From assembly GCA_020633415.1 (NCBI GenBank), contig JACKDQ010000001.1, positions 582,723 to 646,722 on the forward strand: a stretch of 64,000 nucleotides of DNA, written 5' to 3'. The notes beneath the pieces are model-generated. The model saw only the letters and a list, made by a program, of their open reading frames with translations, made no database searches and was not told where the DNA came from. This document shows, one piece after another, positions 4,348 to 8,462 of this stretch. Every line of letters starts with the position of its first letter. Positions within the stretch are counted from its first letter, which is position 1. The position numbers were made by a program, and so were the translations under genes. Origin of the DNA: Deltaproteobacteria bacterium (GTDB taxonomy: Bacteria > Myxococcota_A > Polyangia > GCA-2747355).

Positions 4348-5682
4348 ATGCAGCGAACGCGATGGTCTGTTGGACTGGCGGCAATTGGTGCAATCGCGAG
4401 TGCCGCCAGCCTGAGCGGCTGTGGCCCAACGATCAGCGACGCCGTAGCTCCCGAGGCAAGCGCCAAAGGCGAGCGTCCGAGCGCGCGGATTTGGCAGGAC
4501 AATCGGTGGCCGCGCGACGCGGACGGCAAGACGCGCGTTCCGGTCTGTTGGATCGGCGTTGATCCCGTGGCGCTGACCAACGGGCAGTTGCCGACGGCAA
4601 CGCTCGAGCAACGCATGGGTCACGTCGCCGAAAAGTGGCAAGCGCGTGTCGAACAGCAATTCGCTGGTGCCACCGAGAAGAACGGCGAAAGCTGGTTGAT
4701 CTTCGATTGGCGCGGGCGGTGTGATGCGCTGGCGTACGATGCGCAGGGGAGCGAAGCGATGATTCGCATCGAACCTCACACGCGCTACGTGACCAATGGC
4801 CTGGCCAACAGCCGAGTCGGGCCCTCGCGTGTGGCTGTGACGATGCGGTTGCCGCTGCGCATCGTCAGTTCGTGGGCGGTTGAAGCGTTGCGCCACCGCG
4901 CCGAGCGCTACCTTTTGCCCTGTCTGCGGGAAAAGCTCGACGCGGTTCTTGCCCCTGCACTCGCTCGAGGTGATCTTGCGCCGACCTGTCGCGACGGACT
5001 GTCGTGGGCGCTCTGGTATTCCTACAGCAAGGAGCTGTCCTACACGGTCGCCTCGCCGGAGACGATCTGGCGTCTTGTCGGTGCGCGGTTGACGGACCTC
5101 GTGACGGATCGCGGCGTGCGCAGCGAAGCGCTGTGGGAGCGCAACACCGACCAGGAGATCTACGATTGGTCGACCTGCCCAGACCTGTTTATTTCACGGC
5201 CGCAGCTCGACGAATGTCTGCTCGCGGCCGAGCAGCGCGTGTTGCGCAAGGAGGAACGCGACGCGATCGATGCGAGGACTGCGGAGCAGCTCAGCCGTAT
5301 GCTTGGCCGCGCCGAACACGATACCGTGCTGCACGAGTTTGGACACGGGCTTGGGTTTCTTCACGAGTTGCCCGCCGACGGTAGTTGTACGCGCGATGGG
5401 GACGACAGTTCGTGGCCCGGACAAGTGGTCAGCTTCGGCCCGTTCGATGACGCGTCGATTCTCTTCAACTGCAACAAAGATCAATCGCGCGAAACGATCT
5501 CGACCTGGGACGCGCGCGCGGTCAACTACTACTATGGGCGTACGCCAGGCTGCCCGCTCGAGGTCACGCTATCGAAGGCCGAGATCGCCGCCGGTTGCCG
5601 CTGTCCAAACGCACGCGGCGCGGCAACGGTTGCGCCAGCGCCTGGCGAGCAGTGTGCGATTCCCGCCGAGTGGCGGCGCTAA
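4348..5682 (+). CDS. Metzincin-type zinc metalloprotease lipoprotein
   Basis: Lipoprotein signal (AASLSGC) and an HEFGHGLGFLHE motif, which matches the HExxHxxGxxHE zinc site of astacin/serralysin-type metzincins. 444 aa. Confidence 0.65.
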   Translation: MQRTRWSVGLAAIGAIASAASLSGCGPTISDAVAPEASAKGERPSARIWQDNRWPRDADGKTRVPVCWIGVDPVALTNGQLPTATLEQRMGHVAEKWQARVEQQFAGATEKNGESWLIFDWRGRCDALAYDAQGSEAMIRIEPHTRYVTNGLANSRVGPSRVAVTMRLPLRIVSSWAVEALRHRAERYLLPCLREKLDAVLAPALARGDLAPTCRDGLSWALWYSYSKELSYTVASPETIWRLVGARLTDLVTDRGVRSEALWERNTDQEIYDWSTCPDLFISRPQLDECLLAAEQRVLRKEERDAIDARTAEQLSRMLGRAEHDTVLHEFGHGLGFLHELPADGSCTRDGDDSSWPGQVVSFGPFDDASILFNCNKDQSRETISTWDARAVNYYYGRTPGCPLEVTLSKAEIAAGCRCPNARGAATVAPAPGEQCAIPAEWRR

Positions 5683-6648: not shown

Positions 6649-7338
6649 TTGCTGGCAAACGTTGCCCCTGGCGCCGATCTGGTCCAAAACCTCTGCGGGG
6701 GAATCGCGATGCGCTGTGCAGTTGTAGCTTTGGGCCAAAAAAAGTTCTGCGGCGGCCTGCGTGCGCGGCTGATCTTGATCGCCGGATTGCTGATCTTGAT
6801 CGCCGGATTATCGTTGCTAGCGACGGGGTGCTCCGGCAGCGAGCTGTTGAAAAAGGGAACGTCCGCGCCGGCGCTCTCGACGGTAGGTGCGCCAAAAGAT
6901 ATCGATGGTCGCGAGCTGAAGCTCGAGCAGCTGGCGCGTCGGGGACCGGTTGTCTTGGTCTTCTTGCGCGGCTTTTTCTGACCCTATTCGCGCAAGCATC
7001 TGGGTCAGATGCGTGACGACTACCAGCGGTTTGAGGCGCAGCGTGGACAGATCCTCGTCGTGACCCGCCACGACAGCGCGACGATGCGCGCCTATTGGCG
7101 CAAAGAAAAACTGCCCTTTCGCGGCATCGCTGACCCCGATGGCAAGATCACCGCAGCCTATGGCCAACAATGGAAACTCGTTTCGCTCGGCAGAATGCCC
7201 GCGCAGTTTGTCGTCGATTGCCAGGGAAAGATCGCGCTGAGCCACTACGGCAAGAGCATGGCCGACATTCCGCCGAACGACGAGGTCATCGCCACGCTGC
7301 GTCGACTCAAAGCCGCTTGCCCCGCCGCGGGCAGCTGA
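6649..7338 (+). CDS. Thioredoxin-fold (redoxin/AhpC-TSA-like) lipoprotein with an in-frame TGA at the redox-motif position; candidate selenoprotein
   Basis: ORFs 6649..6981 and 7009..7338 are in the same frame and separated only by TGA 6979-6981, with no other stop between them. The joined product reads VVLVFLRGFF-U-PYSRKHLGQMRDDYQRFEAQRGQILVV...FRGIADPDGKITAAYG, the layout of redoxins with a GxWCPYC motif. A lipoprotein signal is present (likely start at MRCAV, about 6709). A hairpin gcatc-tgggtca-gatgc (6996-7012) sits 15 nt after the TGA. Confidence 0.55.
6991..7015 (+). promoter_or_regulatory. SECIS-like stem-loop downstream of the in-frame UGA
   Basis: A 5-bp GC-rich stem (gcatc/gatgc) with a 7-nt loop containing GGUC. 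It is extendable by cgc/gcg with an AA bulge and starts 10-15 nt after UGA 6979-6981. Confidence 0.4.
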
Positions 7339-7400: not shown

Positions 7401-7979
7401 CTAGCCAAGATTCTTGGCGACAAAGCGCCAGTTGACGAGATTCCAGAACGCCTCGACGTACTTCGGCCGGGCGTTGCGGTAGTCGATGTAATAGGCGTGC
7501 TCCCAAACGTCGCAGGTCAAAAGCGGTTGCTTGCCCTGGCGCAGTGGGCACTCGGCGTTGGCGGTGGCAACGATCGCTAGCTTGCCGCTCGCTTCTTTGA
7601 CCAACCAGGCCCAGCCCGAGCCGAACTGCCCGACGGCTGCGTTGCTAAACTGCTCTTTGAAGGTCGCGAAGCTGCCAAAGTTTGCGTCGATCTGTTGGCG
7701 CACCGCGCCGCTCGGTTCGCCTCCCGCCTGGGGTGCGAGGCTGTTCCAGTAGAAAGTGTGGTTCCAGATCTGCGCGGCGTTATTGAAGACGCCTCCATCG
7801 GCGCCGCGAATGATCTCTTCGAGGCTCTTGCCCGCCCACGGCGAGCCGCCGACGAGCTCGTTGAGCTTGTTGACGTAGGCTTGGTGGTGCTTGCCGTAGT
7901 GGAACTCGAGGGTCTCCGCGGAAATGTGGGGCGCCAAAGCATCTTTGGCATAGGGAAGATTAGGTAGCTCAAACGTCAT
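7401..7979 (-). CDS. sodB: Fe/Mn-family superoxide dismutase
   Basis: MTFELPNLPYAKDALAPHISAETLEFHYGKHHQAYV ... WEHAYYIDYRN. These are canonical Fe/Mn SOD N- and C-terminal signatures. The true start is at MTFEL (cat at 7977-7979); the longer listed ORF runs into the upstream repeats. Confidence 0.92.
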   Translation of the reverse strand: MTFELPNLPYAKDALAPHISAETLEFHYGKHHQAYVNKLNELVGGSPWAGKSLEEIIRGADGGVFNNAAQIWNHTFYWNSLAPQAGGEPSGAVRQQIDANFGSFATFKEQFSNAAVGQFGSGWAWLVKEASGKLAIVATANAECPLRQGKQPLLTCDVWEHAYYIDYRNARPKYVEAFWNLVNWRFVAKNLG

Positions 7980-8058: not shown

Positions 8059-8405
8059 CCGGCGTTGGCGGTTCCAACGCAGATCGGGGTGAGAGGATTC
8101 GCACTGTCTCTCAAGTCCGAATCCGCTGCGCATGCCGGCGTTGGCGGTTCCAACGCAGATCGGGGTGAGAGGATTCGCACTGTCTCTCAAGTCCGAATCC
8201 GCTGCGCATGCCGGCGTTGGCGGTTCCAACGCAGATCGGGGTGAGAGGATTCGCACTGTCTCTCAAGTCCGAATCCGCTGCGCATGCCGGCGTTGGCGGT
8301 TCCAACGCAGATCGGGGTGAGAGGATTCGCACTGTCTCTCAAGTCCGAATCCGCTGCGCATGCCGGCGTTGGCGGTTCCAACGCAGATCGGGGTGAGAGG
8401 ATTCG
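8059..8405. repeat. 76-bp tandem direct repeat array, about 4.5 copies, abutting tRNA-Pro
   Basis: The unit is ccggcgttggcggttccaacgcagatcggggtgagaggattcgcactgtctctcaagtccgaatccgctgcgcatg, repeated at 8059, 8135, 8211, 8287 and 8363. The last copy merges into the tRNA. Each unit contains the tRNA 3'-terminal 18 nt (tcggggtgagaggattcg) and a 7-bp hairpin (gcgttgg-cggtt-ccaacgc). Confidence 0.9.
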
Positions 8406-8462
8406 AACCTCCGACATCCTGCTCCCAAAGCAGGCGCGCTAGCCAGGCTGCGCTACACCCCG
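8388..8462 (-). tRNA. tRNA-Pro (anticodon TGG)
   Basis: Minus-strand sequence CGGGGTGTAGCGCAGCCTGGCTAGCGCGCCTGCTTTGGGAGCAGGATGTCGGAGGTTCGAATCCTCTCACCCCGA. Acceptor stem 7 bp, anticodon stem CCTGC/GCAGG, loop TTTGGGA giving anticodon UGG, T-loop GGTTCGAAT. CCA is not encoded. Confidence 0.9.

What the first reader, a model, noticed from the sequence alone, without database searches (positions are those of the whole stretch)
6649..7338. Candidate selenoprotein: a redoxin-fold lipoprotein with UGA at the CxxC position and a SECIS-like hairpin
Two adjacent same-frame ORFs (6649..6981 and 7009..7338) are separated only by TGA 6979-6981. The junction reads VVLVFLRGFF-[TGA]-PYSRKHLGQM. Thioredoxin-fold redoxins carry GxWCPYCR..L at exactly this place, so the TGA occupies the first, nucleophilic Cys position and the second Cys is replaced by Ser. 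A U-x-x-S/T arrangement is known for several selenoprotein redoxins.

The downstream half keeps the family layout (spacer helix, then VV...D...FRGIADPDGKITAAYG). A stem-loop begins 15 nt after the UGA: stem gcatc/gatgc, loop uggguca containing GGUC, with lower pairs cgc/gcg and an AA bulge. This resembles bacterial SECIS elements, which lie immediately 3' of the UGA and expose a G-rich apical loop.

The N-terminus has a lipoprotein signal, consistent with a periplasmic or extracytoplasmic thiol peroxidase or oxidoreductase.
Basis: partly seen in the sequence, partly recalled or inferred. Interest (0 to 1): 0.72.

Follow-up and report, generated by a model that had tools for sequence, protein, structure and literature searches.

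The report
Split-annotated selenocysteine redoxin lipoprotein gene
The apparent stop codon in the middle of this gene is almost certainly read as selenocysteine, giving one 209-residue lipid-anchored redox enzyme of an already known kind, which public annotation wrongly splits into two proteins.

Summary
Window 6709-7338 (+) is one reading frame with a single TGA (6979-6981), and an AhpC/TSA-Redoxin domain spans that TGA.

The selenocysteine reading is strongly supported:
- All 128 homologous loci I recovered from genomes and metagenomes have TGA at this codon, never TAA or TAG. That count is biased towards Sec forms, because the scan patterns encode the hairpin.
- Cys-containing homologues place Cys in the same column.
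- A hairpin 21 nt downstream (GCAUCUG-GGU-CAGAUGC) meets the published bacterial SECIS model.
- Its stem has frozen synonymous sites, while the rest of the gene varies freely.
- TGA is otherwise an ordinary stop in this window.
- Independent assemblies carry the same TGA.

NCBI lists the halves as two proteins (MCB9554938.1 and MCB9554939.1).

The protein belongs to the long-known class of "Prx-like" thioredoxin-fold selenoproteins. Its sub-clade is distinctive: U-x-x-S/A instead of UxxC, a lipobox, and two extra conserved Cys (C171, C204). Sec aligns with the Thr of the peroxiredoxin TxxC motif, so it is not a canonical peroxiredoxin.

Two things remain open. I could not test whether this genome has selA/B/C/D. 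The exact chemistry (peroxidase versus thiol-disulfide exchange) is inferred.

This is a correct catch of an ordinary but mis-annotated selenoprotein, of modest novelty.

The parts
6709..7338 (+). Complete selenoprotein gene: 209 codons including Sec, plus stop TGA 7336-7338. It encodes a Prx-like (AhpC/TSA-Redoxin fold) lipoprotein.
   Evidence: One frame. The Pfam domain spans the internal TGA. NCBI splits it into MCB9554938.1 (90 aa) and MCB9554939.1 (109 aa).
6697..6702 (+). Shine-Dalgarno-like GGGGGA, 6 nt upstream of ATG 6709.
   Evidence: Read directly from the sequence. Not tested further.
6709..6831 (+). Lipoprotein signal peptide ending in the lipobox L-A-T-G-C. The lipidated Cys41 codon is 6829-6831.
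   Evidence: PROSITE-type lipobox pattern is matched. The lipobox Cys lies 50-52 residues before Sec in 9 of the 10 sub-clade A proteins with complete N-termini; in L003 the script returned an upstream match at 59 residues and 52 is my by-eye reading. 0/4 match in the sister clade.
6768..6809 (+). Exact 21-bp tandem duplication inside the signal-peptide hydrophobic core (LILIAGL x2).
   Evidence: Tandem Repeats Finder: period 21, 2.0 copies, 100% matches.
6979..6981 (+). Sec codon UGA (U91), at the N-terminal nucleophilic position of the CxxC-type motif. The motif here is U-P-Y-S.
   Evidence: TGA in 128/128 homologous loci. Cys in the same column in Cys forms. The equivalent Cys66 of P0001 sits at the N-terminus of helix 67-78 in the AlphaFold model. 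It aligns with the Thr of the Prx TxxC motif.
6988..7019 (+). SECIS-like hairpin. Upper stem 6996-7002/7006-7012 (7 bp), apical loop GGU 7003-7005, AA bulge 6994-6995, lower stem 6988-6993/7013-7019.
   Evidence: -13.3 kcal/mol, z = -2.4. Meets the bSECIS model: spacing 21 nt, 3-nt loop starting GG, 7-bp stem. The stem is 95.8% paired in 17 clade members. Stem codons AAG, CAT and CAG have zero synonymous variation.
7219..7221 (+). Cys171 codon (motif FVVDCQG). Conserved only in the window's sub-clade.
   Evidence: Invariant in alignment A2. Present in 12/12 sub-clade A sequences and absent from sister clade B and the UxxC clade. It maps to the beta-hairpin turn (E146 of P0001) in the model.
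7318..7320 (+). Cys204 codon in the C-terminal tail. Conserved only in the window's sub-clade.
   Evidence: A C-terminal Cys is present in 12/12 sub-clade A sequences and in none of clade B. Numbering.
7401..7979 (-). Context: Fe/Mn superoxide dismutase gene (192 aa), convergent, with 62 nt between the two stop codons.
   Evidence: Pfam Sod_Fe_N and Sod_Fe_C. Coordinates. Ni-SOD lies directly upstream on the same strand in orthologous loci L005 and L007.

Best explanation
Window 6709-7338 is a single selenoprotein gene.

**How it is decoded (inferred by analogy with E. coli fdhF).** During translation, the hairpin at 6988-7019 lies 21 nt 3' of UGA 6979-6981 and has a GGU apical loop. It acts as a bacterial SECIS element. 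It would recruit SelB-GTP-Sec-tRNA(Sec), so the UGA is read as selenocysteine (U91) instead of stop.

**What the product is.** It is a 209-residue Prx-like, thioredoxin-fold protein. Its lipoprotein signal peptide directs export and lipidation at Cys41, so the mature enzyme is tethered to a membrane on the extracytoplasmic side.

**How it probably works.** U91 occupies the exposed nucleophilic position at the N-terminus of helix alpha1. That is the first Cys of a CxxC motif, and the Thr of the peroxiredoxin TxxC. The second position is Ser, so the site is a single-selenol centre.

The most likely chemistry (inferred, about 45%) is GPx-like peroxide reduction:
1. The selenolate attacks the peroxide and forms a selenenic acid.
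2. A thiol resolves it to a selenenylsulfide.
3. An envelope reductant regenerates the selenol.

The resolving thiol would be either the sub-clade-specific C204/C171 pair or an external partner.

The alternative chemistry (about 40%) is thiol-disulfide exchange on a partner protein, as in ResA or TlpA.

**Shown computationally:** one frame, the Sec/Cys column, UGA conservation, the RNA-level constraint, the lipobox and the fold.

**Inferred:** actual Sec insertion in this organism, export, the substrate, and the role of C171/C204.
For: **Frame and domain**
1. One frame with one domain across the TGA.

**Conservation of the UGA**
2. TGA is found at the homologous codon in 128/128 loci, never TAA or TAG. 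The loci come from Chloroflexota, Desulfobacterota/Syntrophia, Spirochaetota and unclassified MAGs and metagenomes. Protein sequence is conserved on both sides, and across the 9 codons between the TGA and the next ATG.
3. Cys occupies the same column in P0001, P0009, L013 and L129, and in many full-length representatives.

**RNA-level constraint**
4. In 16 sequences of the window's clade, 3 of the 4 codon columns with zero synonymous entropy (+5 AAG, +6 CAT, +9 CAG) form the stem.
5. In the 102-sequence UxxC clade, the only zero-entropy columns among 77 tested are +9 CAG and +10 TTG, with +8 GCG at 97/99. These form a different hairpin (UGGCGC-AGUU-GCGCCA) at the same distance. Median normalised entropy elsewhere is 0.88. 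Arg +11 uses only CGC or CGU, which keeps a G-C or G-U pair.
6. The peptide encoded by the hairpin is near-invariant in Sec forms but variable in Cys forms. The distant Cys form L010 has a degraded stem.
7. The hairpin meets all four criteria of the published bSECIS model.

**Controls**
8. TGA is a normal stop in 16 of 50 window ORFs, so there is no genome-wide reassignment.
9. The same TGA appears in independent assemblies from two other sequencing runs, one of which differs by 2 nt elsewhere.

**Structure and localisation**
10. In the AlphaFold model of the 51%-identical Cys form (pLDDT 88.7), the residue sits at the N-terminus of helix alpha1. The nearest folds are PrxQ/BCP, AhpE and ResA.
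11. The lipobox is conserved in 10/10 sub-clade relatives.

**Functional hint**
12. A SOD gene is adjacent in 3 of 12 sub-clade loci.
Against: - No selA, selB or selD and no tRNA-Sec occur in the 64-kb window. The rest of the genome could not be examined, so the Sec trait of this organism is unproven.
- There is no compensatory covariation in the stem. It is simply invariant, with one U-A to U-G change.
- A hairpin of this quality follows 8.5% of random TGAs in the window.
- The 128:4 Sec:Cys count is biased, because the scan patterns encode the hairpin peptide. In the unbiased search, Sec-type and Cys-type representatives are roughly equal, about 14 versus 18 by eye among the top ~35 hits.
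- On function: the canonical peroxiredoxin peroxidatic-Cys column is Ser or Ala and the Prx Pro is Arg.
- There is no conserved operon partner.
- A fusion of a CxxC relative with a PrxQ domain (P0049) suggests that the ancestral role is as a reductant rather than a peroxidase.
- C171 maps to a beta-hairpin turn at the far end of the strand from the active site. This favours a structural C171-C204 disulfide over a resolving role.
Confidence: 0.86

Rival explanations
1. The TGA is a true stop. The locus is either two separate small genes (a 90-aa lipoprotein and a 109-aa half-redoxin starting at ATG 7009) or a pseudogene broken by a nonsense mutation.
For: Public annotation treats it this way, as do gene callers for every homologue. 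An ATG lies 9 codons after the stop.
Against: - Half a thioredoxin fold cannot fold alone, and the Pfam domain spans the stop.
- The stop is always TGA at the same codon in 128 loci across phyla, with purifying selection on both halves.
- The 9 codons between the TGA and the ATG are conserved as protein. They include the second redox Cys in the UxxC clade.
- The restart Met sits at different positions in the two clades.
- Full-length Cys forms are single proteins.
Confidence: 0.03
2. The gene is a genuine selenoprotein gene by descent, but this organism has lost the Sec machinery. Here the UGA terminates and the gene is a recent relic.
For: No sel genes or tRNA-Sec in the window. Loss of the Sec trait is common in bacterial evolution (PMC1794560).
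Against: - Both halves, the lipobox, the hairpin and all family-invariant residues are intact.
- Near-identical copies occur in three assemblies.
- Lineages that leave Sec usually convert TGA to TGC/TGT, as L009 did by one nucleotide, rather than keep a dead gene.
- 64 kb is only a few percent of a genome, so the absence of sel genes here is uninformative.
Confidence: 0.07
3. The in-frame TGA is a sequencing or assembly error in a Cys (TGC/TGT) codon.
For: The source is a metagenome-assembled genome, and a single-base error would be enough.
Against: The identical TGA occurs in two independent Logan assemblies from different runs, SRR17907852 and SRR12358676. It also occurs in 127 other homologous loci.
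Confidence: 0.01
4. This rival concerns function and assumes the gene is a selenoprotein. The protein is not a peroxidase. It is an extracytoplasmic thiol-disulfide oxidoreductase, or a reductant for a partner such as a peroxiredoxin, methionine sulfoxide reductase or cytochrome-maturation client. U91 forms a mixed selenenylsulfide with the partner, which is then resolved by C204/C171 or by a second protein.
For: - The closest named selenoprotein family is called a thiol:disulfide oxidoreductase.
- Sec is at the CxxC N-terminal position rather than the Prx peroxidatic position.
- ResA-type oxidoreductases are among the best sequence and structure matches.
- P0049 fuses a CPYC relative to a PrxQ-type domain.
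Against: - The second redox Cys is lost (Ser or Ala), so a classical dithiol mechanism is impossible within the motif.
- U-x-x-S/T is the arrangement found in glutathione peroxidases (established knowledge; UxxT is listed).
- A SOD gene is adjacent in 3/12 loci.
Confidence: 0.4

Closest known systems
Prx-like thiol:disulfide oxidoreductase selenoprotein family (pfam00578; UxxC/UxxU; first predicted by Kryukov & Gladyshev 2004; listed in PMC9312934 and PMC13188914)
   Same: - Same Pfam domain (AhpC-TSA/Redoxin), with Sec at the first position of the CxxC-type motif and a bSECIS immediately downstream.
- The UxxC clade I recovered has 102 distinct sequences and is about 42% identical to the window protein. 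It occurs in Syntrophia, Desulfobacterota and related groups, where this family was reported.
   Different: - The window's clade has U-x-x-S/A rather than UxxC/UxxU.
- It carries a lipoprotein signal and two extra conserved Cys (C171, C204).
- It uses a different SECIS sequence, GCAUCUG-GGU-CAGAUGC versus UGGCGC-AGUU-GCGCCA.
- I could not fetch the published reference sequence (WP_010940744.1), so I have not proved that it is identical to my UxxC clade.
AhpC/TSA family (peroxiredoxin-like) selenoprotein with UxxS motif (pfam13911 / cd02970; Zhang & Gladyshev 2007, as listed in PMC9312934 and PMC13188914)
   Same: A Prx-like fold selenoprotein with the same U-x-x-S motif.
   Different: That family is defined by pfam13911 (AhpC-TSA_2). 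The window protein scores only 15.6 bits against a 27-bit cutoff for PF13911, but 75 bits for PF00578. The reference sequences were not retrievable, so identity or non-identity is unresolved.
SelL / NCBIfam NF040769 'SelL-related redox protein'
   Same: This is the best NCBIfam hit (1.7e-17). It is a Prx-like redox family that includes selenoproteins.
   Different: The score is 63.6 bits (64-80 for relatives) against a cutoff of 120. Only the N-terminal 99 of 173 profile positions align.
PrxQ/BCP and AhpE peroxiredoxins (e.g. PDB 5epf, 3drn, 2ywn, 1xvw)
   Same: These are the closest solved folds: TM 0.73-0.79, 18-26% identity. They are also the best PDB profile hits.
   Different: In the profile alignment, Sec aligns with the Thr of the Prx P-x-x-x-T-x-x-C motif. 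The peroxidatic-Cys column is Ser and the Pro is Arg.
Glutathione peroxidase (U-x-x-T active site)
   Same: A selenol nucleophile at the N-terminus of helix alpha1 of a thioredoxin fold, followed at +3 by a hydroxyl residue. This is the only well-characterised single-selenol peroxidase arrangement (established knowledge; the motif is listed).
   Different: There is no sequence membership, because PF00255 was not hit. The GPx Gln/Trp/Asn catalytic residues were not identified here.
ResA/TlpA-type membrane-anchored extracytoplasmic thiol-disulfide oxidoreductases
   Same: Same fold, extracytoplasmic tethering, and the nucleophile at the same position.
   Different: Those proteins have a complete CxxC with Cys. 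The window protein has Sec and lacks the second Cys.
Bacterial SECIS elements (E. coli fdhF type; consensus model of Zhang & Gladyshev 2005, as given in PMC13188914 Fig. 2)
   Same: The hairpin lies in the coding region directly 3' of the UGA. [quoted passage not shown]
   Different: The sequence is unrelated to the fdhF element. SelB binding has not been tested.

Membership tests
Bacterial selenoprotein gene (Sec-UGA + bSECIS) | An in-frame UGA aligned with Cys in homologues (a Sec/Cys pair). | tested here: met
   P0001 (CPYS), P0009 (CPFC), L013 and L129 (CPFS), and many full-length representatives have Cys in this column.
Bacterial selenoprotein gene (Sec-UGA + bSECIS) | The UGA (not UAA or UAG) is conserved in orthologues, with coding conservation on both sides. 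| tested here: met
   128/128 loci have TGA. Flanking protein conservation is shown.
Bacterial selenoprotein gene (Sec-UGA + bSECIS) | [quoted passage not shown] | tested here: met
   Loop GGU, 7 bp, spacing 21 nt. Energy is -7.8 kcal/mol for the upper stem alone and -13.3 with the lower stem. The hairpin is conserved and its synonymous sites are frozen. Caveat: 8.5% of random TGAs in the window also pass.
Bacterial selenoprotein gene (Sec-UGA + bSECIS) | selA, selB, selC (tRNA-Sec) and selD are present in the same genome. | not testable with these tools
   None in the 64-kb window. The remainder of the 947-kb contig and of the MAG could not be fetched.
Bacterial selenoprotein gene (Sec-UGA + bSECIS) | Selenium is incorporated into the protein (75Se labelling or mass spectrometry). 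| not testable with these tools
   This requires an experiment.
Prx-like thiol:disulfide oxidoreductase selenoproteins (pfam00578, UxxC/UxxU) | A pfam00578 (AhpC-TSA) domain. | tested here: met
   74-75 bits against a cutoff of 26.
Prx-like thiol:disulfide oxidoreductase selenoproteins (pfam00578, UxxC/UxxU) | A UxxC or UxxU redox motif. | tested here: not met
   The window has U-P-Y-S. Its clade has UxxS or UxxA in 16/16 sequences. Relatives about 42% identical do have UxxC.
AhpC/TSA family selenoprotein, UxxS (pfam13911 / cd02970) | A pfam13911 (AhpC-TSA_2) domain. | tested here: not met
   15.6 bits against a cutoff of 27. cd02970 could not be tested.
AhpC/TSA family selenoprotein, UxxS (pfam13911 / cd02970) | A UxxS motif. 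| tested here: met
   U-P-Y-S.
NCBIfam NF040769 SelL-related redox protein | Whole-protein score at or above the curated cutoff (120 bits). | tested here: not met
   63.6 bits for the window protein and 64-80 bits for relatives. Only profile positions 1-99 of 173 align.
Canonical peroxiredoxin (PxxxTxxC) | A peroxidatic Cys/Sec at the C position of the P-x-x-x-T-x-x-C motif. | tested here: not met
   In the profile alignment to PrxQ 2ywn, U aligns with T, S with the peroxidatic C, and R with P.
Canonical peroxiredoxin (PxxxTxxC) | A Prx/thioredoxin-like fold. | tested here: met
   The AlphaFold model of the Cys homologue has pLDDT 88.7. Top Foldseek hits are BCP/PrxQ and AhpE.
Bacterial lipoprotein | An N-terminal signal peptide ending in a lipobox [LVI..][ASTG..][AGS]-C. 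| tested here: met
   IAGLSLLATGC matches the PROSITE-type pattern, and the lipobox is conserved in 10/10 sub-clade relatives. Processing by Lgt and Lsp is not testable here.
Glutathione peroxidase | A PF00255 domain with the Sec/Gln/Trp/Asn catalytic tetrad. | tested here: not met
   PF00255 is not among the Pfam hits, even at E <= 10. Only the U-x-x-[ST] arrangement is shared.

The most novel reading that the evidence does not exclude
The window's sub-clade (12 sequences, monophyletic) would be an undescribed family of lipid-anchored cell-envelope selenoenzymes.

Its defining features are:
- a single-selenol U-x-x-S/A centre on a PF00578 scaffold;
- a lineage-specific Cys171/Cys204 pair that acts as a resolving relay;
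- no Cys-containing orthologue recovered among the loci and database hits I examined.

In this reading it would work as a selenium-dependent peroxide scavenger alongside superoxide dismutase in high-GC, probably aerobic bacteria. That would be a bacterial, extracytoplasmic functional analogue of GPx.
Probability: 0.25. Interest if true: 0.5.

Novelty: new member of a known kind. Interest (0 to 1): 0.33.

Why it matters
**Annotation.** Two adjacent NCBI proteins (MCB9554938.1 and MCB9554939.1) should be merged into one selenoprotein. The same applies to more than a hundred homologous loci. No NCBIfam model reaches its cutoff for this family, so pipelines will keep splitting these genes.

**Biology.** The gene adds a lipid-anchored, extracytoplasmic member with a single-selenol U-x-x-S/A site to the Prx-like selenoproteins. 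The best-known members of that group are cytoplasmic UxxC proteins of anaerobes.

**A clean example of RNA constraining protein.** The peptide encoded by the SECIS (KHLGQMR or HMAQLRQ) is nearly invariant in Sec forms and free to vary in Cys forms. One consequence is practical: peptide-pattern searches for such families are biased towards Sec forms.

None of this would surprise a selenoprotein specialist.

Tried and rejected
- **Whole-region MFE fold.** It pairs CUGACCC with GGGUCAG, sequestering the UGA. The pairing is not conserved in orthologues such as L005 and L007, so I rejected it in favour of the conserved hairpin.
- **Covariation test.** Uninformative, because the stem is invariant. 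I replaced it with a gene-wide synonymous-entropy test.
- **Rfam.** No relevant family. Only a meaningless weak lncRNA hit at E = 2.5.
- **Sec machinery.** I found nothing. I searched the window with ARAGORN, Rfam and Pfam on 40 of about 50 ORFs. I also ran ARAGORN on 1.48 Mb of homologous loci.
- **A second selenoprotein in the window.** The best candidates, TGA 46305 and TGA 24869, translate to junk on one side. Rejected.
- **Structure prediction of the joined window protein.** I modelled the Cys homologue P0001 instead. Coordinates are not exposed, so U91-C171-C204 distances could not be measured.
- **Conserved gene neighbourhood.** None beyond a SOD gene in 3/12 sub-clade loci. The most frequent neighbour is a protein I read by eye as an SDR-type dehydrogenase, found in 11/59 loci.
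- **"The family is almost always Sec" (128:4).** I considered this claim and rejected it as biased, because the scan patterns encode the SECIS peptide. The exhaustive search shows many Cys forms.
- **Ni-SOD and Fe/Mn-SOD motif regexes.** They missed the Ni-SODs that the precomputed Pfam calls report. I relied on the Pfam calls.
Full report
**1. Observation**

Window 6649-7338 (+) is one reading frame with a single internal stop, TGA 6979-6981. The junction reads VVLVFLRGFF*PYSRKHLGQM. With the stop replaced by Cys, Pfam AhpC-TSA (1.2e-20) and Redoxin (7e-17) each match as a single stretch across the stop.

The likely start is ATG 6709, with GGGGGA 6 nt upstream. That gives a 209-residue product with these key residues:

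| Residue | Role | Codon |
|---|---|---|
| C41 | lipobox Cys | 6829-6831 |
| U91 | Sec | 6979-6981 |
| C171 | sub-clade-specific Cys | 7219-7221 |
| C204 | sub-clade-specific Cys | 7318-7320 |

The hairpin exists. Read fully, it is a 7-bp stem GCAUCUG/CAGAUGC (6996-7002 and 7006-7012) with a GGU loop. An AA bulge and a lower stem extend it over 6988-7019. Energy is -13.3 kcal/mol and z = -2.4.

A hairpin meeting a simplified SECIS model follows 8.5% of all TGA triplets in this 62%-GC window. The single hairpin is therefore not beyond chance. Its conservation across loci is.

**2. Comparative evidence that the UGA is decoded**

A protein search with the joined sequence returned three kinds of hit:
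- one close full-length homologue with Cys at the TGA column (P0001, ...LRGFGCPYSRKHLGQMRDDY);
- one CPFC form (P0009);
- seven proteins of 114-129 aa (P0002-P0008) that all begin at MRDDY, which is what gene callers produce when an upstream in-frame stop splits the gene; an eighth fragment, P0010 (127 aa), begins at MAQLRQDY and belongs to the UxxC clade.

Fetching their DNA confirmed the split in every case. A small upstream ORF ends exactly 27 nt before the ATG, and the separating codon is TGA in 9 of 9 loci.

Scans of one genome per species and of metagenome contigs raised the total to 128 loci. All 128 have TGA at the homologous codon.

Most of them are a large clade with RGFx-U-P[FY]C-R[RAK]HMAQLRQDY. 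This UxxC clade occurs in Chloroflexota, Desulfobacterota/Syntrophia, Spirochaetota and others. The window belongs to a smaller U-x-x-S/A clade.

Four Cys forms were found: L009 (TGC), L010, L013 and L129.

TGA is an ordinary stop in 16 of 50 window ORFs, so there is no code reassignment. The same gene, with its TGA, was assembled independently from two other sequencing runs. One of those assemblies differs from the window by two bases elsewhere. This excludes sequencing error, pseudogene and split-gene readings for practical purposes.

**3. RNA-level constraint**

In 17 aligned members of the window's clade, the stem is 95.8% paired but almost invariant. There is only one U-A to U-G change, so a classical covariation test has nothing to work on.

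I therefore measured synonymous-codon entropy in every conserved codon column of the gene.

| Clade | Sequences | Columns tested | Median normalised entropy | Zero-entropy columns |
|---|---|---|---|---|
| UxxC | 102 | 77 | 0.88 | +9 CAG, +10 TTG (+8 GCG is 97/99) |
| UxxS/A | 16 | 75 | 0.65 | +5 AAG, +6 CAT, +9 CAG, +75 |

- In the UxxC clade the frozen codons are the hairpin UGGCGC-AGUU-GCGCCA. Arg +11 uses only CGC or CGU, which keeps a G-C or G-U pair.
- In the UxxS/A clade three of the four frozen columns form the stem GCAUCUG/CAGAUGC.
- The two clades thus hold different hairpin sequences at the same place. Spacing from the UGA is 25 nt and 21 nt respectively.

Both hairpins satisfy the published bacterial SECIS model. 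[quoted passage not shown]

The encoded peptide (HMAQLRQDY or KHLGQMRDDY) is near-invariant in Sec forms. It varies in Cys forms, for example CPFCRQHMALLRRDF and CPHSRRHLGRLTTDY. The distant Cys form L010 has a broken stem. L009, which is one nucleotide from TGA, still keeps the stem.

**4. What the protein is**

An AlphaFold model of P0001 (51% identical, pLDDT 88.7) gives these placements:
- The Sec-equivalent Cys66 lies at the N-terminus of helix 67-78, after strand 56-60. This is the canonical thioredoxin-fold redox position.
- The C171 equivalent (E146) lies in the turn of the last beta-hairpin.

The nearest solved folds are PrxQ/BCP, AhpE and ResA, at 18-26% identity.

In the profile alignment to PrxQ 2ywn, the motif RGF-x-U-P-Y-S lines up with P-A-A-F-T-Q-V-C. 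Sec corresponds to the Prx Thr, which is the first Cys of a CxxC. The peroxidatic-Cys column is Ser and the Prx Pro is Arg. The protein is therefore not a canonical peroxiredoxin.

The best NCBIfam hit is "SelL-related redox protein". It stays below cutoff, at 63.6-80 bits against 120, and aligns only over the N-terminal half of the profile. PF13911 is also below threshold, at 15.6 bits against 27.

**5. Sub-clade anatomy**

A neighbour-joining tree gives three nested groups:
- **Sub-clade A:** the window plus 11 metagenome sequences, monophyletic.
- **Sister clade B:** six sequences, including the Cys forms L009 and L013, monophyletic.
- **A+B together:** monophyletic, set apart from the UxxC group.

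All of sub-clade A has UxxS or UxxA, the Cys in the DCxG motif (C171) and a C-terminal Cys (C204). All ten members with a complete N-terminus also match the lipobox pattern; in nine the Cys lies 50-52 residues before Sec (L003's reported match is 59 residues upstream). Clade B has type-I signal peptides or none, and neither extra Cys.

The window's own signal peptide contains an exact 21-bp duplication, LILIAGL x2.

**6. Context**

No gene partner is conserved. A superoxide dismutase gene is adjacent in 3 of 12 sub-clade loci:
- Fe/Mn-SOD, convergent and 62 nt away, in the window;
- Ni-SOD directly upstream on the same strand in L005 and L007.

Two sequences exactly identical to the window's two halves are separate NCBI proteins with consecutive accessions. 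The N-half is MCB9554938.1, "hypothetical protein H6707_02460". The C-half is MCB9554939.1, "redoxin domain-containing protein". Both come from a MAG labelled Deltaproteobacteria bacterium, and the longest contig carrying them is 947 kb.

**7. Mechanism**

*Shown computationally:* one frame, the Sec/Cys column, UGA conservation, a conserved hairpin under RNA-level selection, the fold and the lipobox.

*Inferred:*
- SelB and Sec-tRNA(Sec) recognise the hairpin and insert Sec at U91.
- The protein is exported and lipidated at C41.
- U91 is a lone selenol nucleophile.

I favour GPx-like peroxide reduction, at about 45%. The reasons are the U-x-x-S/T arrangement and the SOD neighbours.

Thiol-disulfide exchange with a partner is nearly as likely, at about 40%. 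The family is named as an oxidoreductase. ResA is among the best matches. P0049 fuses a CPYC relative to a PrxQ-type domain.

C171 and C204 are either a structural disulfide or a resolving relay. The position of C171, far along the strand from the active site, favours the structural reading.

**8. Relation to what is known**

Prx-like thioredoxin-fold selenoproteins have been known since 2004. Reviews list three relevant families:
- "UGC-containing Prx-like protein";
- an "AhpC/TSA family protein" (pfam13911/cd02970, UxxS).

The UxxC clade found here matches the first family in domain, motif and taxa. The window's clade combines the pfam00578 domain with UxxS/A, a combination not listed there. 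I could not retrieve the reference sequences, so I cannot prove whether it is the same as or different from the pfam13911 UxxS family.

**9. Caveats**

- The Sec machinery of this genome is untested. The window has none.
- The 128:4 Sec:Cys count is biased, because the scan patterns encode the SECIS peptide. The exhaustive search shows roughly equal numbers of Sec-type and Cys-type representatives, by my by-eye count of the top hits.
- Function is inferred.

**10. Verdict**

It is a mis-annotated member of a known class of bacterial selenoproteins. It has some sub-family peculiarities and modest novelty.

Noticed in passing
window 8059-8405 (next to tRNA-Pro(tgg) at 8388-8462, minus strand): A 76-bp tandem repeat with 4.6 copies at 100% identity. 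Each unit carries a copy of the last ~20 nt of the tRNA-Pro 3' end (GCGAATCCTCTCACCCCGA) plus about 55 nt. It looks like reiterated integrase att sites at a tRNA gene, or an assembly artefact. It also inflates the apparent SOD ORF to 259 aa.
   Followed up: partly
window 6768-6809: An exact 21-bp tandem duplication (GCTGATCTTGATCGCCGGATT x2) inside the signal peptide of the selenoprotein. It doubles LILIAGL in the hydrophobic core and is not present in the orthologues.
   Followed up: partly
database proteins P0046, P0058, P0079: These homologues have Trp at the Sec column (RGFVWPFC, RGLYWKHC, RGFIWPYC). I suspect their TGA was translated with genetic code 4, so selenoprotein genes may be hidden as 'W' proteins in public protein sets. 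Their DNA was not checked.
   Followed up: no
database protein P0049 (309 aa): A natural fusion of a CPYC member of this family with what I recognise by eye as a PrxQ/BCP-type peroxiredoxin domain (…FYPKDMTPGCT…). This is a Rosetta-stone hint that the CxxC/UxxC forms act as the reductant of a peroxiredoxin.
   Followed up: no
database proteins P0051, P0060: Lipoprotein homologues (LLAGCGG and LIACGC lipoboxes) in which the redox motif is replaced by G-D-R-D. They appear to be non-redox descendants of the same envelope lineage.
   Followed up: no
all loci; scan patterns: The peptide encoded by the SECIS hairpin (HMAQLRQDY or KHLGQMRDDY) is the most conserved stretch of the Sec forms, so it was chosen automatically as the scan pattern. 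This biases retrieval towards Sec forms (128 Sec versus 4 Cys). It is a general pitfall for pattern-based searches of selenoprotein families.
   Followed up: yes
L135:1617-1618 = window 5625-5626: An independent assembly from run SRR17907852 differs from the window only by GG versus AA at two adjacent positions inside the 444-aa HExxH-motif gene (4348-5682). This is evidence of a second, nearly identical population.
   Followed up: partly
L009 (ENA contig k119_639097) versus L011/L096: The Cys form L009 (TGC) keeps exactly the hairpin sequence of its Sec-form relative L011 (GCAUCUCGGGCAGAUGC). This looks like a very recent single-nucleotide Sec-to-Cys conversion caught before the SECIS decayed.
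   Followed up: partly
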